Below are positions 1,690 to 11,182 of a stretch of 20,879 nt of DNA, one piece after another. The stretch is from Candidatus Micrarchaeia archaeon (GTDB taxonomy: Archaea; Micrarchaeota; Micrarchaeia; Norongarragalinales; CAINOH01): the NCBI GenBank assembly GCA_046753405.1, contig JBHHTN010000007.1:1-20879 (forward strand), in the 5' to 3' direction. Position numbers and translations under genes: made by a program. Positions within the stretch are counted from its first letter, which is position 1. Each line of letters opens with the position of its first letter. The notes under the pieces were generated by a model that made no database searches, was not told the origin of the DNA, and worked only from the letters and a program-made list of their open reading frames with translations.

Positions 1690-1713
1690 AATTTTAAGAG
1701 GGTGTTTTTTTGA

Positions 1714-2376
1714 TTGGTTTTGAAAAAGTTTCAACAAGACTTGCTGGTGTTATTGGCGCAGGAAGGCGCGCTTTACCGCTTTGTGAAGCTTACCACGGGG
1801 GAGTTGGCCGGGAAAGTGAGCGTTTCACAGCAAACTGTTTCTCGCTGGATTTCGGGTTTGGAAGAAGCTGGACTGATCTACAAAAACAAGCAAGGCTTTC
1901 GAATAACGCAGAGTGGCAGAGAGTTTTTGCAGGGAGTTCACTTGGCCTTGGACAAAGTGCTTTCGAAGAAGGCGGGCAGCGTTTTCTTGCAGGGAACGGT
2001 GACGGAGGGTTTTGGAGACGGCGCGTACTACACTTCCCTGCCGGAATACAAGAAACAGTTGAAAAAGAGCGTTGGCTTCGAAGCCTTTCCAGGCACTTTG
2101 AACATCCGTCTTTCTTCGGAAGAGGATTTAAGGCAGAGAATGAAGTTGGACTCCAAGACAGGGTTGCACGTGAGGGGGTTTACGAAAGGCAAGAGGAGGT
2201 TCGGTTCTGCAAAGTGTTTTCCAGCGCTTGTGAACGGAAAAGTGAAGGCAGCGGTGATTATTCCGCAAAGGAGTCATTACTCGGCGGAAGTGGTGGAGTT
2301 GATTGCGCCTCTGAAGTTGCGAAAGGCGTTGAAGTTGAAGGATAATTCGATTGTTGAAATTGAAGTAAAAGAATAG
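1714..2376 (+). CDS. ribK: CTP-dependent archaeal riboflavin kinase (MJ0056 family) fused to an N-terminal winged-helix HTH, i.e. an RbkR-like regulator/kinase
   Basis: The N-terminus carries an HTH (LTTGELAGKVSVSQQTVSRWISGLEEAGLI). The C-terminus carries archaeal RibK motifs (FPGTLNIRL, GKRRFGSAKCFPA). The start is TTG, with GGGTG about 9 nt upstream. Confidence 0.7.
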   Translation: MVLKKFQQDLLVLLAQEGALYRFVKLTTGELAGKVSVSQQTVSRWISGLEEAGLIYKNKQGFRITQSGREFLQGVHLALDKVLSKKAGSVFLQGTVTEGFGDGAYYTSLPEYKKQLKKSVGFEAFPGTLNIRLSSEEDLRQRMKLDSKTGLHVRGFTKGKRRFGSAKCFPALVNGKVKAAVIIPQRSHYSAEVVELIAPLKLRKALKLKDNSIVEIEVKE

Positions 2377-2386
2377 TTGAAAAAAA

Positions 2387-4312
2387 ATGGCTGGAAAATT
2401 TGAAAAACCAAAGGAGTACTTTTTGCACGGGCACAGGTCTTGCGCTGGGTGCGGTCCGGCTGTTGCCATGCGACAGTGCTTGCAGGCACTTGGCGACGAG
2501 ACGGTTGTGGTGAACGCCACAGGTTGCATGGAAGTTGTAAGCACGCAGTACCCTGAAAGTTCTTGGAACTTGCCTTACATTCACTCTCTTTTTGAAAACG
2601 TGCCGTCTGTTGCAAGCGGTGTTTCTCGCGCCTTCAAAAAATTGGGCAAAAAAGGGGTTGTTGTTGGAATAGGCGGCGACGGTGCATGTTATTCGCCCGA
2701 CACGAAAATTTTGACGGCCGATGGTTTCAAGTGGGTGGCCGACGTTTCAACTAAAGATATTCTTTGGAGCGTTAACCCTGACACCTTTGAGCTTGAATTG
2801 CAACCTGTTGAAAAACTGCATCAATATTTTTTTGAAGGAAAAATGGTGCGGGCAAATACGCGATACGTTGATTTTCTTGTTACTTCTAACCACAACATTC
2901 CTGCAATGTTTCGTAAATCTGGAAAAATAGTTTTTTTAAAGGCAGAAGAGCTGTTGAAAAAATATAAAACCTTGTTGCCAAGAAGTTTCAAGTGGCATGG
3001 AGAGAAGAAAGATAGATTTGTTCTTCCAAAACTTCCAAGCAAAACCAGTATGAGGCAGTATTCGTCTTTTGACGCTGGCGACTGGGCCGAATTTGTTGGC
3101 TGGTACGTTACCGAAGGCAGTTGTTATCATAGCGACAGTGGCTACCTTGTAAGAATTTATCAGTCAAATAAAAAGAACCGCAAGCATATTTTGCAGTTAG
3201 TTAGGAAAATGGGGTTGCGTGCTTCTGAGTGTAGTCGTTCTGTTGATATTTCATCCAAGCAGCTTTTTACCTGCCTCAAAAATACTTGCGGGGATTATTT
3301 TTACAATAAAAGAATTCCGAAAGACGTTCTTTCATTATCTTCTGACAAGCTTTTACGGCTTTTCGATGCAATGATTCGTGGCGACGGCTGCAAAGTTCGC
3401 CCAGGTAAGGGGAGAACTTCATTTAGAACAACTTTCATAACCAAGTCGTCGTACTTGGTAAGTCAATTTACCGAGCTTTGCTTAAAGCTTGGAAAAGGCG
3501 TTCACATAACTTATGATAATAGGAGGATAGCAAGAATTGGCGTTCAAGAGAAACATGTAAAAAACGAGTTGTATTCCACAAGAAAATTTTCCCAGGGAAA
3601 GACTCAAGTTTTTGAGGAGGATTATGAAGGAATAGTTTACTGTCCTCAACTTCCAAAGAACCATACGCTGATAATCGAACGAAATGGAAAAGTCTCGTTG
3701 AGCGGAAACAGTTACGACATCGGTTTCGGCGCGTTGTCTGGGGCGATGGAGCGAAACGAGGACATGATTTACATTGCCTACGACAACGAGTGTTACGCCA
3801 ACACAGGAGTGCAAAGATCGGGCGCTACTCCTATTGGCGCGGTTACTACCACCTCGCCTGCAGAAATTCACGGCAAAGCACAGTGGAAGAAGAACTTGCC
3901 GTTTATTGCCGCCGCGCACGCTATTCCTTACGTTGCAACAAGTAGCATTGCGTTTATTCCGGATTTGAAAAAAAAGCTGCAAAAGGCAAAGGAAAAAAAG
4001 GGCTTTAGGTTGGTTCACGTTCACGCGCCTTGCCCTCTTGGCTGGAGGTTCGATTCGGGGAAAACAATTGAAGTTGCACGCCTTGCAGTCCGATGCGGTT
4101 TGTGGAACTTGTTTGAAATTGAAAACGGTCTCTTCAAGCAGTCAATGCGTTTTCCAAAGTTGGTTGATGTTGAGGATTACTTGAAATTGCAGGGAAGATT
4201 CAAGATACTTGATGAACAACAGTTGAAACAAATCAAGGAACACCTTGCGCGTGTTCAAACAGAATTGAAAAAGCTTGAGGACGCCAAACTGAATTTAGAG
4301 TACTTTTTGTAA
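2387..4312 (+). CDS. porB: 2-oxoacid:ferredoxin oxidoreductase beta subunit (TPP-binding), interrupted by an intein
   Basis: The N-extein (CAGCGP, GIGGDGA) and C-extein (SYDIGFGALSG, YDNECYANTGVQRSGATP) match PorB. The 641-aa ORF is about 340 aa longer than a typical beta subunit. Confidence 0.9.
   Translation: MAGKFEKPKEYFLHGHRSCAGCGPAVAMRQCLQALGDETVVVNATGCMEVVSTQYPESSWNLPYIHSLFENVPSVASGVSRAFKKLGKKGVVVGIGGDGACYSPDTKILTADGFKWVADVSTKDILWSVNPDTFELELQPVEKLHQYFFEGKMVRANTRYVDFLVTSNHNIPAMFRKSGKIVFLKAEELLKKYKTLLPRSFKWHGEKKDRFVLPKLPSKTSMRQYSSFDAGDWAEFVGWYVTEGSCYHSDSGYLVRIYQSNKKNRKHILQLVRKMGLRASECSRSVDISSKQLFTCLKNTCGDYFYNKRIPKDVLSLSSDKLLRLFDAMIRGDGCKVRPGKGRTSFRTTFITKSSYLVSQFTELCLKLGKGVHITYDNRRIARIGVQEKHVKNELYSTRKFSQGKTQVFEEDYEGIVYCPQLPKNHTLIIERNGKVSLSGNSYDIGFGALSGAMERNEDMIYIAYDNECYANTGVQRSGATPIGAVTTTSPAEIHGKAQWKKNLPFIAAAHAIPYVATSSIAFIPDLKKKLQKAKEKKGFRLVHVHAPCPLGWRFDSGKTIEVARLAVRCGLWNLFEIENGLFKQSMRFPKLVDVEDYLKLQGRFKILDEQQLKQIKEHLARVQTELKKLEDAKLNLEYFL
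2687..3709 (+). mobile_element. Intein (341 aa) with a LAGLIDADG homing endonuclease, inserted in the GDG TPP-binding motif of PorB
   Basis: It starts CYSPDTKILTADG (intein block A) right after GIGGDGA. Two LAGLIDADG blocks are present (WAEFVGWYVTEGS and LLRLFDAMIRGDGC). It ends ...VSLSGN followed by Ser +1 (SYDIG). The predicted spliced product GDGA-SYDIGF matches the native PorB motif. Confidence 0.8.
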
Positions 4313-5985: not shown

Positions 5986-8490
5986 ATGAGGAACGGAAAA
6001 TACTTGTTTACGTCTGAGTCGGTTACCGAGGGGCATCCTGACAAGGTATGCGACCAGATTTCCGACGCGGTTTTGGACTCTATTTTTGAAAAAGACCCCA
6101 ACGGCCGCGTTGCAGTTGAAGCATTGGTGACAACGGGACAAGTGGTAATAGCAGGAGAGGTTAGGACAAACGCTTACGTTGACGCTGCTGGCATTGCCAG
6201 GAAAGTAATCAATGATATTGGGTACACTGACGCGGAACTTCAGTTTTCCGGGGACAGTTGCGGTGTTTTGGTTGCAATTCACGAGCAGTCTCAAGACATC
6301 GCGCAAGGTGTTGACGAAGGCGAGAAAAAAGAGCAGGGTGCAGGCGACCAAGGACTCATGTTCGGGTACGCCTCGAACGAAACTCCTGAATTGATGCCGT
6401 TGCCGATTATTTTGGCTCACAAGCTTACAAAAAAACTTTCAAAGGCAAGAAAAAGCGGGGAGATTCCTTATCTTAGGCCGGATGGGAAAAGCCAGGTAAC
6501 TGTTGAATACGACGGGAACAAGCCGGTTCGCGTTACCGCAGTTGTCATTTCAACGCAGCACTCCGACGAGGTTTCAAACGAGCAAATACGAAAAGACGTT
6601 ATTGAAAAGGTAATAAAGCCGGTTTGCGGCGACTGGTTGAAAGACGACACCAAGTTTTTCATCAACGCAACAGGACGCTTTGTTTTGGGAGGGCCCGCGG
6701 CAGACACAGGCGTAACAGGAAGAAAGATAATCGTCGACACCTACGGCGGGCACGGAAGCCATGGGGGCGGCGCGTTTTGTGTTTCCGGGGAGTCAATCGT
6801 AAATTCGGAGAAAGGTTTGGCGCCAATTAACGAACTTTCTTCTCTTCCTTCTGGTTCGCTTGTCAAAACGGATGTTTCTCCAACTCCAATGGAAACATGG
6901 CTTGACAATGGAGTTATGAGTACTTTACGGTTAGAAACAAAAGATGGTTACGGGCTTGAAGGCACGCCAAACCAATGCATTCGTGCGATTGATTTCAAGG
7001 GTAATTACGTTTGGCGGCGTTTTGACGCGATTCAGTCAACTGACTGGGTTGCAATACAACGCAAGAACAGGTTGTTTGGCCAAAAATCTGTTGTGAATTT
7101 TGAATTTAAACACAAAAAAGCCGCGCATAGAAAAAACGATTTTTCTTTTCCTGCGGAGCTTACCGAAGACTATGCTTATTTGCTTGGCCTTTTAACCGGC
7201 GATGGCATGTGCACTACGCGTGACGGCGTGCGAGTATGCGTTTGCGAAAAACAAATGGAAGAAGTCGTGCAATCCTTGTTAACTCGTCTGTTTGGAAAAA
7301 AAGGCAAGATATTCGGACACTGGGCGCATTATTGCGGAGTGGAACTGCGAGCTTATCTGGAACAATTGGGTCTTGGTTATTGGCGTTCATGGCAAAAAAA
7401 AGTACCTGCCAGTGTTTTGAGCGCGCCAAAAACCACTGTCGCAGCTTTTATTCGCGGTTTGTTTGACGCTGACGGTACTGTTAGAAGAACCGGAAGAAAC
7501 AAGAATTCTGTGGAAGTGAAATTGACCACGACTTCCAAAGAACTTGCATTAGGAGTTCAACAATTGTTGTTGAACTTTGGAATAGTCTGCGCAATTCAAA
7601 CGGTGCAAACAACCGGGAAAACCTCGCGCATTCGCAACCGGACTGTTCGTTCTGCAAGGCCTCTTTACCACGTTCGTGTAAAAGGCGTTGACAGTGTTCG
7701 AATCTTCCAAAAAGAAATCAATTTTGCGCTTGCTCGCAAGGCCAAGATTCTAAACAACATTGAAAACTCGTCAAAACGCAGTCGTCTAACTATTCCAAAC
7801 CAGCGCGAGCGCGTGAGGAGGCTTTGGTTAAAGCTTTCCTCAAGTGAGCATCAGAAAGACCGCGCCGGCGTTGGGCACTGGTTGCGCAATCCAAGCACCA
7901 AAGGTACAAAGGAACTTACTTACGCCAAAATGATTGATTTTATTGACGCTTACGAAACAAAGTTTGCAGGCAATAATGATTTTGAGTACTTGAGAACGTT
8001 TTTTGTCATGAATCATTATTATTCGAAAGTCAAATCTACGCAAAAAAGTCAAAGTCACGTTTATGACTTTGTTGTTCCCGGAGCCCATGCGTTTACTGCC
8101 AACGGTTTTGTGTGCCACAATTCTGGAAAAGACCCTTCCAAGGTTGACCGTTCGGCATCTTACATGGCCAGGTACATTGCGAAAAACATTGTTGCAGCTG
8201 GTTTGGCCGACCAGTGCGAAGTACAAATTGCGTACTGCATTGGAGTGGCAGAACCGGTGTCGGTTTTGGTCAGCACTTTTGGCACGAACAAGATTCCTGA
8301 AGAGAAGATTGCCCAGCTTGTTCGCGAGCACTTTCCGCTTAAGCCCTCGGAGCTTATCGAGCACTTGAACCTGCGCAGGCCGATTTTCAGGAAAACAGCT
8401 GTGTACGGCCACTTCGGACGCGAAGACCCTGATTTCACGTGGGAAAAAACGGACAAAGCAGACGAGTTGAAGAAAGCGGCAGGGCTTTGA
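5986..8490 (+). CDS. metK: S-adenosylmethionine synthetase of the bacterial/eukaryotic MetK type, interrupted by a large intein
   Basis: MetK motifs are present: [42 protein letters not shown] before the insert, and [14 protein letters not shown] / [14 protein letters not shown] after it. The ATG is at 5986; the tracked ORF begins at an upstream TTG at 5971. Confidence 0.9.
6778..8121 (+). mobile_element. Intein (448 aa) with a LAGLIDADG homing endonuclease, inserted in the GGGAF|SGKD triphosphate-binding loop of MetK
   Basis: It starts at the Cys right after HGGGAF (CVSGESIVN...). LAGLIDADG blocks are [14 protein letters not shown] and [14 protein letters not shown]. It ends ...GFVCHN followed by Ser +1 ([11 protein letters not shown]). 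The predicted spliced product [16 protein letters not shown] is the canonical MetK motif. Confidence 0.85.
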
Positions 8491-8719: not shown

Positions 8720-11182
8720 ATGAGGAAGTCTGTTCGGTCCAAAAAGGTTTCAGCGTCAAAGGCTGCAAAGTCTAAAGACCAAGACCCTTCTTTTTTGAAA
8801 GACTTCAAGTCTACTGCTGAAATTCACGTTTCTGAAAAACTGGTTGACCAGATCATCGGCCAGGAAAAAGCCGTTGAAGTAATAAAGAAAGCGGCAAGGC
8901 AAAAGAGGAACGTTTTGCTCATCGGCATTCCCGGAACCGGCAAAAGCATGATTGCACAGGCAATGAGCGAGCTTATTCCGCTTCAAGAGTTGCAGGACAT
9001 TATAGTTGAAGCAAATCCGGATGACGAAAACGTTCCTAAAATAAAAGTTGTGAAAGCAGGGGATGCGCGAAAATTCGTTGCAGCCGAAAAAACCAAAGGC
9101 AAAATGGCCGGAGGCAACATAAACATCGTGTTGTTCGTTTTCATGGCCTTGTCTACCATGGTTCTCTTGTACTTTGGACCCGGGTTTTTCGGCGAAGTCA
9201 TCACGGCCGCGCTTTTAATCGGGTCGTTCATGATGGGCGCAGGACTCATGTTTGCCTCGCAACTCGGACGAGGCCGCCTGATGGCCGAGGCAGAGTCATT
9301 GAAAGTGCTTGTGGACAACAAGGGAAGGAAAAAAGCTCCTTTTGTTGAGGCAACAGGAGCCAAGGCAGGGTCTTTGCTTGGCGACGTGAGGCACGATCCC
9401 TTTCAATCTACAATTGACGAAACAAAATTGTATGTTAGGCGTAGTGGTGGAATGCAGAAAATTTCTTTTGGAGCTCTTTGGAAAGAGATGGTTAAGAAGT
9501 ATCCTGACTTGTTTGAGCGTCGTGAGGATGGTTACGAAGCAATAATGCTTCCCGAAAGTGAAGAGCTTTACACGCTTGGAGTAAAGGATGGGCAGGTTGT
9601 GGCAACGAGAATGCTTGTTATTAACCGCCGTCCATTTAAGGGAAAAATTGTTGCTACTTATTCAAATAAAGGACTGCTTGAAACTACTCCTGAACATGCG
9701 TACATTCTTTCTGACAAAGAGAAAAAAGCATCAGAACTGGATGCTGATGACGAGCTTTTGATATTGCAGGATAAGCAAATTGTCGAGGAAAAAATTTCTT
9801 CTAAATCGGAGAAGGATTTTGACGGTTGGGTTTACAACACTACGACGGATACTGGGAATTTTTTTGCCAACGATGTTCTAATTCACAACTCCGGCGGTCT
9901 TGGAACTCCTCCGCATTTGCGTGTTGAGGCGGGTTTTGTTCACAAGGCTAATAAGGGGGTTTTGTTTGTTGATGAAGTTGCGACTTTGAGGCAGAAGAGC
10001 CAACAAGAGTTGTTGACTGCAATGCAGGAGCGAAAGTACTCGATTACAGGTCAAAGCGAGATGTCAAGCGGGGCCATGGTGAGAACCGAGCCAGTTCCGT
10101 GCGATTTTGTTTTGGTTGCAGCGGGTAATTACACTGACTTGCGCAAGATGCATCCGGCTTTGCGCTCCAGGATAAGGGGTTATGGTTACGAGGTTTACAT
10201 GGAGAAGTCTATTCCAAGCAATGTTGAAAACATAAAGAGGCTTGTCCAGTTCATAGCGCAGGAAGTTAAAAAGGACGGTAAGATTCCGCATTTTGACAAA
10301 AGTGCGGTAGTTGAAATAATCAAAGAAGCACACAAGAGATCTGGTCGCAAGAATAAGCTTACTTTGAAGCTTCGCGACCTTGGCGGTTTGATTCGTGCTG
10401 CTGGGGACCTGGCAAAAGAGCAGGGCGCGCACCATGTTTCTGTTTCTCATGTTAGACGGGCAAAAGTGATTTCAAGTACTTTGGAGCAGCAGGCAATGGC
10501 GCAGTATATTTCCATTAGGAAGGATTACCAAGTGTTTCAGACCAGAGGCAAAGCCATTGGAAGAGTCAATGGTTTGGCGGTGATGGCTGACGCCGGGCTT
10601 GTGCTTCCGATTGTTGCAGAGGTCAGTCCTGCTGCAAGCAAGCTTGAGGGAAAAATTATTGCAACTGGCAAGCTTGAGAAAATTGCCGAGGAAGCAGTGC
10701 AAAACGTAAGTGTCATTATCAAAAAGCATTTGGGAAAAGACACGTCCAACTACGACGTGCACGTTCAATTTTTGCAGACTTATGAGGGAGTGGAAGGAGA
10801 CAGTGCCAGTGTTTCTGTTGCAACCGCGGTTATTTCCGCGTTGGAGGAAGCGCCCATTGACCAGAATATTGCAATGACTGGCTCGTTGTCGGTTCGCGGA
10901 GAGGTTTTGCCAGTGGGCGGTGTTACTGGGAAGGTTGAAGCTGCAATTGAAGCGGGTTTGACAAAGGTGCTTGTTCCCAAGGCAAACGAGGGAGACATTG
11001 TGCTTGAAGAGGCAAAGTTGAAAAAAGTGGAAATCATCCCAGTGTGCGACATCTTCGACGTTTTGGATCACGCGTTGTCAAAGTCAAAGAAGAAAAAGCA
11101 ATTGCTTGGAACAATCAAAGAAGAATTGGGAGGATCATTTGAAAGTTTTTCAGATGTTATTAAGACAAGGCGCGAAAAGTAA
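8720..11182 (+). CDS. lonB: Archaeal membrane-bound ATP-dependent Lon protease (LonB), interrupted by a mini-intein
   Basis: Walker A is GIPGTGKS. Two TM helices are inserted in the AAA module (NINIVLFVFMALSTMVLLYF and ITAALLIGSFMMGAGLMF). GDVRHDPFQ and SGGLGTPPHLRVEAGFVHKANKGVLFVDE flank the insert. There is a C-terminal Lon protease domain (SVATAVISAL, GEVLPVGGVTGK). Confidence 0.9.
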   Translation: MRKSVRSKKVSASKAAKSKDQDPSFLKDFKSTAEIHVSEKLVDQIIGQEKAVEVIKKAARQKRNVLLIGIPGTGKSMIAQAMSELIPLQELQDIIVEANPDDENVPKIKVVKAGDARKFVAAEKTKGKMAGGNINIVLFVFMALSTMVLLYFGPGFFGEVITAALLIGSFMMGAGLMFASQLGRGRLMAEAESLKVLVDNKGRKKAPFVEATGAKAGSLLGDVRHDPFQSTIDETKLYVRRSGGMQKISFGALWKEMVKKYPDLFERREDGYEAIMLPESEELYTLGVKDGQVVATRMLVINRRPFKGKIVATYSNKGLLETTPEHAYILSDKEKKASELDADDELLILQDKQIVEEKISSKSEKDFDGWVYNTTTDTGNFFANDVLIHNSGGLGTPPHLRVEAGFVHKANKGVLFVDEVATLRQKSQQELLTAMQERKYSITGQSEMSSGAMVRTEPVPCDFVLVAAGNYTDLRKMHPALRSRIRGYGYEVYMEKSIPSNVENIKRLVQFIAQEVKKDGKIPHFDKSAVVEIIKEAHKRSGRKNKLTLKLRDLGGLIRAAGDLAKEQGAHHVSVSHVRRAKVISSTLEQQAMAQYISIRKDYQVFQTRGKAIGRVNGLAVMADAGLVLPIVAEVSPAASKLEGKIIATGKLEKIAEEAVQNVSVIIKKHLGKDTSNYDVHVQFLQTYEGVEGDSASVSVATAVISALEEAPIDQNIAMTGSLSVRGEVLPVGGVTGKVEAAIEAGLTKVLVPKANEGDIVLEEAKLKKVEIIPVCDIFDVLDHALSKSKKKKQLLGTIKEELGGSFESFSDVIKTRREK
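9407..9889 (+). mobile_element. Mini-intein (161 aa, no endonuclease domain) in the DPFQ|SGGLGTP motif of LonB
   Basis: It starts with Ser (STIDETKL...) and has a Hint block B-like LLETTPEHAYIL. It ends VLIHN followed by Ser +1. The predicted spliced product DPFQSGGLGTP matches the native archaeal LonB motif. No LAGLIDADG or HNH blocks were seen. Confidence 0.7.

What the first reader, a model, noticed from the sequence alone, without database searches (positions are those of the whole stretch)
6778..8121. Large LAGLIDADG intein in a bacterial-type MetK inside an archaeal genome
The host gene is the bacterial/eukaryotic MetK form (GHPDK, GAGDQG, DTYGG, GGGAFSGKD), not the archaeal MAT form, although all neighbouring genes are archaeal. 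That suggests a horizontally acquired metK. The gene carries a 448-aa intein exactly between GGGAF and SGKD in the triphosphate-binding loop, with the canonical C1 ... HN / S+1 junctions. Both the gene type and the intein allele are unusual in an archaeal setting.
Basis: partly seen in the sequence, partly recalled or inferred. Interest (0 to 1): 0.7.

Follow-up and report, generated by a model that had tools for sequence, protein, structure and literature searches.

The report
Mobile intein interrupting archaeal SAM synthetase
The gene for the enzyme that makes S-adenosylmethionine in this tiny (Micrarchaeota) archaeon is interrupted by a self-splicing, self-copying protein element (an intein) that its closest relatives lack; it belongs to a so-far undescribed intein family in which most members have glutamine in place of a catalytic histidine that is conserved in nearly all known inteins.

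Summary
ORF 5986..8490(+) is a bacterial-type MetK (TIGR01034, 594 bits after removing the insert). It is interrupted at 6778..8121 by a 448-aa class-1 intein (Cys1 ... His-Asn / Ser+1) with a nested two-motif LAGLIDADG homing endonuclease. The model has pLDDT 93.6, and its best fold matches are the TliVMA intein, PI-PfuI, PI-TkoII and PI-SceI.

The 'horizontally acquired, unusual metK' reading is only weakly supported. The host is a Micrarchaeia (DPANN) MAG. Bacterial-type MetK is the usual form in Micrarchaeota, other DPANN and Thaumarchaeota, and here it tracks the host. Two fully syntenic relatives carry intein-less metK that is 83% identical.

What is new is the intein allele. At least 47 distinct intact homologues sit at the same GGGxF|SGKD site in environmental archaea. 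Their distribution is patchy and does not match the extein tree. dN/dS is 0.07-0.20 in both the splicing and endonuclease parts. I found no paper describing a MetK intein.

In 36 of the 47, including this one, the block-B histidine (B:10) is glutamine. All 101 nearest non-MetK relatives, which sit in Walker-A loops of PhoH, RecA and RuvB, keep histidine.

PorB and LonB in the same window also carry inteins. Overall this is a new member of a known kind, of moderate interest.

The parts
5986..8490 (+). metK precursor ORF (834 aa plus stop): bacterial-type S-adenosylmethionine synthetase interrupted by an intein
   Evidence: Translation. Pfam S-AdoMet_synt_N, _M and _C, LAGLIDADG_3 and Intein_splicing. 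The exact protein is found on Logan contig SRR29324598_27730. The NCBI record annotates only a 186-aa fragment of it.
5986..6777 (+). N-extein (264 aa), ending ...[14 protein letters not shown]. Phe is the -1 residue.
   Evidence: It is 83% identical to the intein-less orthologues together with the C-extein.
6778..8121 (+). MetK intein, 448 aa, class 1 (Cys1 ... His447-Asn448), with a nested LAGLIDADG homing endonuclease
   Evidence: AlphaFold2 model with pLDDT 93.6. Foldseek matches to 7qss, 1dq3, 2cw7 and 1vde at E 2.5e-21 to 3e-10. Absent from the syntenic orthologues.
6778..7131 (+). N-terminal part of the HINT splicing domain (about aa 1-118). Block A is CVSGESIVN. Block B is [10 protein letters not shown], with Thr63 at B:7 and Gln66 at B:10 (CAA, 6973-6975) where inteins normally have His.
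   Evidence: Beta-strands at residues 7-93 in the model. Family alignment. HMM alignments to 101 relatives that all have His in this column.
7132..7737 (+). LAGLIDADG homing-endonuclease domain (about aa 119-320). Motif 1 is [12 protein letters not shown] (Asp142, 7201-7203). Motif 2 is [12 protein letters not shown] (Asp232, 7471-7473).
   Evidence: Pfam PF14528 over precursor residues 485-578. PDB sequence match to the TliVMA intein endonuclease region. Both Asp residues are invariant in 47 family members. dN/dS is 0.05-0.15.
7738..8013 (+). Helical region between the endonuclease core and the C-terminal splicing strands (about aa 321-412). Probably an accessory DNA-binding or structural module (inferred).
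   Evidence: Helices at 343-411 in the model, with one low-confidence stretch near residue 375. Conserved, with dN/dS 0.06-0.3. Function not tested.
8014..8121 (+). C-terminal part of the HINT domain (aa 413-448). Block F is VYDFVVP (Asp430). Block G is ANGFVCHN (His447, Asn448).
   Evidence: TIGR01443 intein_Cterm over residues 427-448. Invariant D430, H447 and N448.
8122..8490 (+). C-extein (122 aa plus stop). It begins with Ser+1 (TCT, 8122-8124), the native Ser of GGGAFSGKD.
   Evidence: PF02773 C-terminal domain match resumes at precursor residue 712.

Best explanation
This is a mobile, self-splicing class-1 intein carrying an active-type LAGLIDADG homing endonuclease. It sits in the resident, vertically inherited bacterial-type metK of a Micrarchaeia (DPANN) archaeon.

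Inferred mechanism, following the standard class-1 pathway:
1. The 834-aa precursor folds.
2. Cys1 attacks the Phe(-1)-Cys1 peptide bond (N-S acyl shift).
3. The native Ser+1 hydroxyl takes over the N-extein (transesterification).
4. Asn448 cyclises, helped by His447, and releases the intein.
5. An O-N shift restores the GGGAF-SGKD loop of active MetK.

The free intein, or the endonuclease domain within it, cuts intein-less metK alleles at the conserved GGGAFSGKD coding sequence. Repair from the intein-containing allele then copies the intein in (homing). This explains its patchy spread among DPANN and Asgard metK genes.

One step must differ from the textbook. The block-B histidine (B:10), which normally strains and activates the N-terminal scissile bond, is glutamine here and in about three quarters of the family. 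I infer that activation is compensated, most plausibly by the bulky Phe at -1 and by co-varying active-site neighbours (B:6 Gly, F:2 Val).

Shown: anatomy, fold, insertion polymorphism, family distribution, and purifying selection. Inferred: that splicing and homing actually occur, and how the missing histidine is compensated.
For: - Junctions and length are exact. The spliced product matches TIGR01034 end to end at 594 bits.
- Fold: pLDDT 93.6, pTM 0.93. Top Foldseek hits are all HE-containing inteins (TliVMA 7qss E 2.5e-21, PI-PfuI, PI-TkoII, PI-SceI), followed by mini-inteins and I-DmoI.
- Insertion polymorphism: L166 (1.30-Mb contig) and L167 (1.23-Mb contig) share the gene order PorA-RFK-PorB-x-MBL-MetK-LonB...DUF373-Band7-SpoIIM...RpoL. 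Both have uninterrupted 386/388-aa MetK. Their empty site is 48/60 nt identical to the fused window site.
- None of the 120 closest exteins in the protein database and none of the 80 best GTDB species-representative loci carries an insert.
- Family: 19 protein clusters and 67 metagenome loci have a 43-69% identical intein at the identical site. 66 of the 67 have no in-frame stop. Intact copies are 442-460 aa, with no mini-derivatives.
- Named hosts include Micrarchaeota, Heimdallarchaeaceae and Aenigmatarchaeota.
- Mobility: intein and extein pairwise identities correlate poorly by rank (Spearman 0.18). Some exteins that are 80% identical carry inteins only 48% identical. The window's intein is 68% identical to inteins whose exteins are only 66% identical, while its own 83%-identical orthologues are empty.
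- Selection: dN/dS is 0.07-0.20 overall, 0.05-0.15 in the endonuclease part and 0.07-0.30 in the HINT part. C1, D142, D232, D430, H447 and N448 are invariant in 47 unique sequences.
- The host gene is not decaying. MetK is the most conserved of nine syntenic genes (83% against 53-76%).
- Gln at B:10: 36 of 47 unique family members have it and 40 of 49 metagenome copies, against His in 101 of 101 nearest non-MetK relatives.
- The -1 residue is Phe in 48 copies and Tyr in 1. Bulky -1 residues are reported to compensate for a missing block-B His (PMC6333167).
Against: - No experiment shows splicing or endonuclease activity.
- His B:10 is described as the most conserved intein residue, and one of the two earlier inteins lacking it was a pseudogene (PMC4031507). 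A Gln variant could therefore splice poorly or only under certain conditions.
- Only this contig of the genome was examined (a 42-kb Logan version exists). I could not exclude a second SAM synthetase (archaeal MAT) or SAM scavenging from a host cell. Either would relax the need for splicing.
- GC3 of the intein (0.41) differs from the extein (0.55) but equals the window average (GC 0.45), so composition does not date the insertion.
- The extein tree is a quick neighbour-joining tree without support values.
- One homologue (L083) has an in-frame TGA at intein codon 7, so decay does occur in some copies.
Confidence: 0.88

Rival explanations
1. The intein is splicing-dead because it lacks the block-B histidine. 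The interrupted metK would then be a non-functional relic, and the symbiotic DPANN cell would get SAM from another enzyme (archaeal-type MAT) or from its host.
For: - Gln replaces His B:10.
- One earlier His-less intein was a pseudogene (PMC4031507).
- DPANN archaea commonly depend on hosts for metabolites (general knowledge).
- NCBI's pipeline annotates only a 186-aa fragment of this gene.
- L083 carries a premature TGA.
Against: - The ORF is intact over 2.5 kb.
- The extein is the most conserved of nine syntenic genes and scores 594 bits on TIGR01034.
- The Gln clade comprises 36 distinct intact sequences down to 47% pairwise identity, with dN/dS about 0.1 in the splicing domain. All other catalytic residues (C1, T63, D430, H447, N448, S+1) are kept. 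A dead element would not be conserved like this.
Confidence: 0.07
2. The insert is an old, vertically inherited and now domesticated or immobile intein. On this view it was present in an ancestor of DPANN metK and lost repeatedly, and it is no longer a homing element.
For: - The ranking of intein identity to the window roughly follows the ranking of extein identity.
- Pearson correlation of the pairwise identities is 0.74.
- The closest known copy is only 68% identical, so there is no evidence of very recent transfer into this genome.
Against: - The endonuclease domain is under the strongest purifying selection of the three parts (dN/dS 0.05-0.15), and both catalytic Asp residues are invariant. 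This is not expected for an immobile intein, which usually decays to a mini-intein. No mini-derivative was found among 67 loci.
- Rank correlation of intein and extein identity is only 0.18. Near-identical exteins carry very different inteins.
- The three closest relatives are empty.
- Hosts span DPANN and Asgard.
Confidence: 0.15
3. The metK gene itself, together with its intein, was recently acquired by horizontal transfer from bacteria.
For: - The gene is of the bacterial type.
- Bacterial MetKs (Clostridia, CPR) score only slightly lower than archaeal ones.
- The extein's GC3 (0.55) is higher than the window's overall GC (0.45).
Against: - Orthologous, syntenic, 83%-identical metK occurs in related Micrarchaeia genomes, with the same branching order as eight neighbouring genes.
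- The best hits are all DPANN or Thaumarchaeota.
- The archaeal acquisition of bacterial-type MAT is described as an early event (PMC4122925).
Confidence: 0.03

Closest known systems
Archaeal HE-containing class-1 inteins with solved structures: TliVMA/PhoVMA inteins (7qss, 7qst), PI-PfuI (1dq3), PI-TkoII (2cw7), PI-SceI (1vde)
   Same: The architecture is the same: a HINT splicing domain split by a two-motif LAGLIDADG endonuclease. Cys1, the TxxX block B, the block-F Asp, the terminal His-Asn and a hydroxyl/thiol +1 residue are all present. These are the best Foldseek matches (E 2.5e-21 to 1e-9, TM 0.5-0.66).
   Different: Sequence identity is only 11-18%. The host protein is a metabolic enzyme (MetK), not a V-ATPase, ribonucleotide reductase or DNA polymerase. 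Block B:10 is Gln instead of His. There is an extra helical region at aa 321-412.
Walker-A (P-loop) inteins of bacterial PhoH, RecA and RuvB (PhoH is listed among intein hosts in PMC4760082)
   Same: These are the nearest sequence relatives: 28-31% identity over the full 448 aa, E about 1e-40. They share the same domain order and length, and also sit in a glycine-rich nucleotide-phosphate-binding loop.
   Different: Their insertion site is GxxGxGK|T in P-loop NTPases (93 of 93 examined), whereas MetK's site is GGGAF|SGKD. Their +1 residue is Thr, not Ser. They all keep His at B:10 (101 of 101). They are mostly bacterial.
Tko CDC21-1 intein and orthologues (Tori et al. 2012, as summarised in PMC4031507 and PMC6333167)
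   Same: They are natural class-1 inteins that lack the block-B histidine yet splice. They have a bulky -1 residue (Leu there, Phe here).
   Different: They sit in a different host (CDC21/MCM) and are not evidently related. Compensation there is by Lys58, outside the conserved blocks. No equivalent was identified here. Instead, B:6 (Gly/Ala) and F:2 (Val/Thr) co-vary with Gln/His. Splicing of the MetK intein is untested.
Ssp DnaB M86 G-1F/H73A engineered intein (PMC6333167; PDB 6fre)
   Same: It shows that a Phe at -1 can functionally replace the block-B histidine in the N-S acyl shift. The MetK intein has the same combination, Phe(-1) with no His at B:10.
   Different: It is an engineered mini-intein and not a natural one. 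The missing His is Ala there and Gln here. The relevance to the MetK intein is an inference.

Membership tests
Class-1 intein (HINT splicing domain) | N-terminal nucleophile Cys/Ser at intein position 1 | tested here: met
   Cys1 (TGT, 6778-6780). Invariant in 47 family members.
Class-1 intein (HINT splicing domain) | C-terminal Asn (usually His-Asn) followed by a Cys/Ser/Thr +1 extein residue | tested here: met
   His447-Asn448 followed by Ser+1. TIGR01443 intein_Cterm match.
Class-1 intein (HINT splicing domain) | Block B TxxH motif (Thr B:7, His B:10) | tested here: not met
   Thr63 is present, but B:10 is Gln66 (TPNQ). Homologous relatives have His in that column in 101 of 101 cases. This is a rare deviation with a known precedent (Tko CDC21-1; PMC4031507). 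It weakens textbook membership but not the overall assignment.
Class-1 intein (HINT splicing domain) | HINT fold | tested here: met
   High-confidence model. Foldseek probability 1.00 to full-length inteins, mini-inteins (Npu/Ssp DnaB, Mtu RecA, Mxe GyrA) and the Hedgehog autoprocessing domain.
Class-1 intein (HINT splicing domain) | The insert is absent from orthologues, and its precise removal restores a conserved host motif | tested here: met
   The syntenic loci L166 and L167 and the 120 closest MetKs lack it. Removal restores GGGAFSGKD.
Class-1 intein (HINT splicing domain) | Autocatalytic protein splicing actually occurs | not testable with these tools
   Supported only indirectly, by the conserved extein and purifying selection on the splicing domain.
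LAGLIDADG homing endonuclease (two-motif, monomeric) | Two LAGLIDADG helices, each ending in a catalytic acidic residue | tested here: met
   LLGLLTGD142G and IRGLFDAD232G. Both Asp residues are invariant. PF14528 at 78 bits.
LAGLIDADG homing endonuclease (two-motif, monomeric) | Site-specific cleavage of the intein-less allele | not testable with these tools
   Inferred from dN/dS of 0.05-0.15 in the endonuclease domain and from the patchy, incongruent distribution. A candidate target is the 60-nt empty site of L166 or L167.
Bacterial/eukaryotic-type MetK (TIGR01034; PF00438, PF02772, PF02773) | Full-length match above the curated cut-off, with signature motifs GHPDK, GAGDQG and GGGAFSGKD | tested here: met
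   594 bits against a cut-off of 309, covering model positions 1-376 of 377. Motifs are visible.
Archaeal-type MAT (PF01941) | Match to the archaeal AdoMet synthase family | tested here: not met
   The Pfam scan of the precursor lists only bacterial-type MetK domains plus intein families; PF01941 is not among the families reported at E<=0.001.

The most novel reading that the evidence does not exclude
The Gln-B:10 MetK inteins would be a natural, diversified and splicing-competent clade of class-1 inteins that has dispensed with the histidine described as the most conserved intein residue. The histidine would be replaced functionally by strain from the invariant aromatic -1 residue (Phe/Tyr of GGGAF) and by re-tuned neighbours (B:6 Gly, F:2 Val). 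If so, this is a natural counterpart of the engineered G-1F/H73A DnaB intein. It could also make MetK maturation, and hence SAM supply, conditional on the state of the triphosphate-binding loop.
Probability: 0.55. Interest if true: 0.6.

Novelty: new member of a known kind. Interest (0 to 1): 0.45.

Why it matters
1. It adds a central metabolic enzyme, SAM synthetase, to the list of intein hosts, with two insertion sites. Both sites lie in substrate-binding glycine-rich loops. This extends the published observation that inteins cluster in nucleotide-binding motifs (PMC4760082) beyond replication and repair proteins.

2. It offers at least 36 natural sequences of a class-1 intein lineage without the block-B histidine, alongside 11 sister sequences that keep it. 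That is a ready-made comparative set for studying how the first splicing step can be activated without that residue.

3. There is a practical consequence. NCBI's pipeline annotates only fragments of these genes (186 aa here, 582 aa in the Heimdall MAG). Metabolic reconstructions of DPANN and Asgard MAGs may therefore wrongly score SAM synthesis as missing.

4. Three intein-interrupted genes within 9 kb, each polymorphic among syntenic relatives, make this Micrarchaeia clade a good natural system for studying intein gain and loss.

Tried and rejected
- Synteny of the window with 80 GTDB metK loci and with 80 metagenome intein loci: none beyond metK itself. Synteny appeared only once the closest exteins were located.
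- Viral contigs scanned with the intein: only two 21%-identical hits, so no evidence for a viral carrier. A profile query was not tried.
- Literature: searches for intein plus MetK or S-adenosylmethionine synthetase, and for inteins plus DPANN, found no description of a MetK intein. The main text of the Novikova et al. survey does not mention it. Its supplements were not searched.
- tRNA scan of the window: none found.
- First dN/dS script timed out. It was redone from the multiple alignment.
- Composition as a dating tool: rejected as uninformative. The intein's GC equals the window average, and it is the extein that is GC-richer.
- The idea that the NCBI 'domain-containing' fragments mean split or frameshifted genes: rejected for L082, whose 840-aa ORF is continuous. 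L083 does have an in-frame TGA.
- Model coordinates are not exposed, so I could not measure the distance of Gln66 from the scissile bond.
Full report
**1. Observation**

The window holds one long ORF, 5971/5986..8490(+). Its translation carries the MetK signatures GHPDK, GAGDQG, DTYGG and GGGAF...SGKD. The last motif is split by 448 residues that start with Cys and end with His-Asn. Coordinates computed from the translation are exactly 6778..8121.

With the insert removed, the 386-aa product matches TIGR01034 (metK) over positions 1-376 of 377, at 594 bits against a cut-off of 309. The insert matches Pfam LAGLIDADG_3 (78 bits), Intein_splicing (weak) and TIGR01443 intein_Cterm. It also matches the intein parts of NCBI's intein-containing DnaB, GyrA, IF-2 and RecA models.

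**2. Host genome**

- The exact precursor is on a 42-kb Logan contig.
- The window's LonB is in NCBI as 'Candidatus Micrarchaeia archaeon', on a contig of 20,879 bp, which is this window's length.
- All the best LonB relatives are Micrarchaeota, followed by Diapherotrites.
- Neighbouring genes are PorA/PorB, an MBL-fold hydrolase, LonB, DUF373, Band7, SpoIIM, RpoL and PCNA.

The host is therefore a DPANN archaeon.

**3. Is a bacterial-type MetK unusual here?**

No.
- Among GTDB species representatives, the best matches to the extein are Micrarchaeota (71%), Nitrosopumilaceae (70%), Woesearchaeota, Nanoarchaeota, Iainarchaeum, Bathyarchaeia and Nitrososphaera. These are interleaved with Clostridia and CPR bacteria at 60-66%.
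- In the 5.8-billion-protein collection, the named entries among the 120 closest exteins are Micrarchaeia, Diapherotrites, Woesearchaeota, Nanoarchaeota and Aenigmatarchaeota, plus one Patescibacteria entry.
- The three best (82-83% identity) come from the same three assemblies that hold the three closest LonBs.
- Two of those, L166 (1.30-Mb contig) and L167 (1.23-Mb contig), are syntenic with the window across about 20 kb.
- Across nine shared genes the window is always the outgroup to L166+L167. MetK is the most conserved of the nine, at 83% against 53-76%.

So metK is resident and vertically inherited in this clade. Any bacterial origin is ancient, as already published for Thaumarchaeota (PMC4122925, Fig. 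5).

**4. The insert is an insertion, not a domain**

- L166 and L167 encode uninterrupted MetK of 386 and 388 aa, with GGGAFSGKD and GGGAYSGKD respectively.
- Their 60-nt empty site is 48/60 identical to the window's fused junction.
- None of the 120 closest exteins and none of the 80 best GTDB loci carries an insert.

**5. Fold**

An AlphaFold2 model built from 48 aligned sequences has pLDDT 93.6 and pTM 0.93. Its layout is:
- beta-strands at residues 1-93 and 414-447, forming the HINT domain;
- an alpha/beta core at about residues 130-330;
- helices at residues 343-411.

Foldseek against the PDB returns the TliVMA intein (E 2.5e-21, TM 0.66), PI-PfuI, the PhoVMA intein, PI-TkoII and PI-SceI. 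These are followed by I-DmoI-type endonucleases, mini-inteins and the Hedgehog autoprocessing domain. The only sequence-level PDB hit is the endonuclease region of the TliVMA intein.

**6. A family at one site**

The intein alone retrieves 19 protein clusters of MetK with a 47-69% identical insert. Named hosts are Heimdallarchaeaceae, Micrarchaeota and Aenigmatarchaeota.

A profile scan of metagenome contigs adds 67 loci.
- Every one has the insert at GGG[ACS][FY]|C ... [HV]N|SGKD.
- 66 of 67 have no internal stop.
- Complete copies are 442-460 aa, and no mini-intein derivative was seen.
- The Heimdall locus L082 has an intact 840-aa ORF, although NCBI annotates only 582 aa.
- NCBI annotates only 186 aa of the window's gene.

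**7. Mobility**

In a neighbour-joining extein tree the intein-bearing genes are scattered. They fall among Micrarchaeota, Woese-/Nanoarchaeota-like, Iainarchaeum-like, Thaumarchaeota-adjacent, Heimdall and an Omnitrophota-like branch, each next to intein-less genes.

Over 27 complete loci, intein and extein pairwise identities have Spearman rho 0.18.
- Exteins 80% identical can carry inteins only 48% identical.
- Some inteins are more similar than their exteins.
- The window's intein is 68% identical to inteins in metK genes whose exteins are only 64-72% identical, while its 83%-identical orthologues are empty.

This pattern fits homing followed by loss better than strict co-divergence.

**8. 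Selection**

Nei-Gojobori dN/dS was computed for 39 non-saturated pairs at 70-87% identity.
- Whole intein: 0.07-0.20.
- Endonuclease part: 0.05-0.15.
- HINT part: 0.07-0.30.
- Residues 321-412: 0.06-0.33.

Invariant residues in 47 unique sequences include C1, D142, D232, D430, H447 and N448.

**9. The unusual feature**

Block B reads G57-Y-G-L-E-G-T63-P-N-Q66. Gln therefore sits at B:10, where inteins have histidine.
- HMM alignment to the nearest non-MetK relatives shows T-x-N-H in the same columns.
- All 101 relatives with that column have His.
- Within the MetK family, 36 of 47 unique sequences have Gln and 11 have His. Positions B:6 (Gly vs Ala) and F:2 (Val vs Thr) co-vary with this.
- The Gln clade is old, with pairwise identity down to 47%.
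- The -1 residue is Phe in 48 copies and Tyr in 1.

[quoted passage not shown] It also states that only two inteins lacked it, one a pseudogene and one (Tko CDC21-1) using a compensatory lysine (PMC4031507). A 2018 study showed that bulky -1 side chains, including Phe, can compensate for the missing histidine in an engineered DnaB intein (PMC6333167).

I infer that the MetK Gln clade splices with such compensation. This is not shown.

**10. Origin of the lineage (inference)**

All 93 full-length nearest relatives (PhoH, RecA, RuvB and others) sit in the Walker-A loop, GxxGxGK|T. The MetK site is another glycine-rich phosphate-binding loop. The MetK family may descend from P-loop inteins that moved to a similar sequence.

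**11. Verdict**

This is a genuine, probably active, mobile LAGLIDADG intein at a previously undescribed host site. The metK-HGT angle is ordinary. The intein family and its Gln B:10 are the noteworthy parts.

The main limits are:
- no biochemical evidence;
- only one contig of the genome was examined;
- the trees are quick distance trees without support values;
- the literature check is limited to the open-access library and did not include the supplements of the intein surveys.

Noticed in passing
window 2687..3709 (+), inside PorB ORF 2387..4312: A second probable intein: a 341-aa insert (CYSPDTKILT ... SLSGN / Ser+1) inside the TPP-binding GDG motif of pyruvate:ferredoxin oxidoreductase subunit beta (GIGGDGA|...|SYDIGFG). 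Spliced PorB is 300 aa, the length of the NF008819 model. The insert has LAGLIDADG-like motifs and a canonical TSNH block B, but Gly instead of His before the terminal Asn. It gives a PDB sequence hit to PI-PkoII (E 2e-5). It is absent from the syntenic L166 PorB (305 aa).
   Followed up: partly
window 9407..9889 (+), inside LonB ORF 8720..11182: A third probable intein: a 161-aa mini-intein with Ser1 (STIDETKLYV), block B TTPEH, and ending VLIHN / Ser+1, splitting VRHDPFQ|SGGLGTP of LonB. It gives PDB sequence hits to the Pho RadA intein (E 7e-6) and the NrdJ-1 intein. Both syntenic relatives have uninterrupted 659-aa LonB. Other Micrarchaeota LonBs of 815-1132 aa carry intein Pfam domains.
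   Followed up: partly
L167 5049..7613 (JAIYIW010000001.1, syntenic Micrarchaeia genome): The PorB of this relative carries a 545-aa intein at a different PorB site from the window's (EDMIYL|CLPANEE ... FVIQN|CYDNECYANTG). PorB therefore has at least two intein insertion sites in this clade, both in the TPP-binding motif.
   Followed up: partly
L086 (about 1911..3125) and L088 (about 3078..4292); also L089: Some metagenomic metK genes carry two inteins. One is the GGGAF|SGKD intein. The other is a 405-aa LAGLIDADG intein (25% identical, canonical TPDH block B) inside the GAGDQG motif (GAGDQG|C...VHN|SMFG), where the native Leu at +1 is replaced by Ser.
   Followed up: partly
L083 5962..5964 (ENA DOMB18-1 scaffold_6302): This MetK-intein homologue has an in-frame TGA at intein codon 7, where the others have Leu/Ile/Phe. 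The gene was therefore called as two ORFs. It could be a pseudogene or a sequencing error. Its neighbours (PTS HPr, enzyme I, GH57) and its extein placement near Omnitrophota suggest the family may reach bacteria.
   Followed up: partly
L134 2984..4117: Directly upstream of an intein-bearing metK lies a second, very divergent MetK-like gene. It is 25% identical to the window extein, with PF02773 at 54 bits and PF02772 below cut-off. It may be a paralogue of unknown role.
   Followed up: partly
window 5986..8490; L082 7100..9749: Public annotation misses these genes. NCBI lists only a 186-aa 'methionine adenosyltransferase domain-containing protein' for the window's contig and a 582-aa fragment for the Heimdall contig, although both ORFs are continuous (834 and 840 aa).
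   Followed up: yes
window 1710..2345 (+): The ORF between PorA and PorB has no Pfam hit on record for the window. It occupies the position of a CTP-dependent riboflavin kinase (PF01982) in both syntenic relatives.
   Followed up: no
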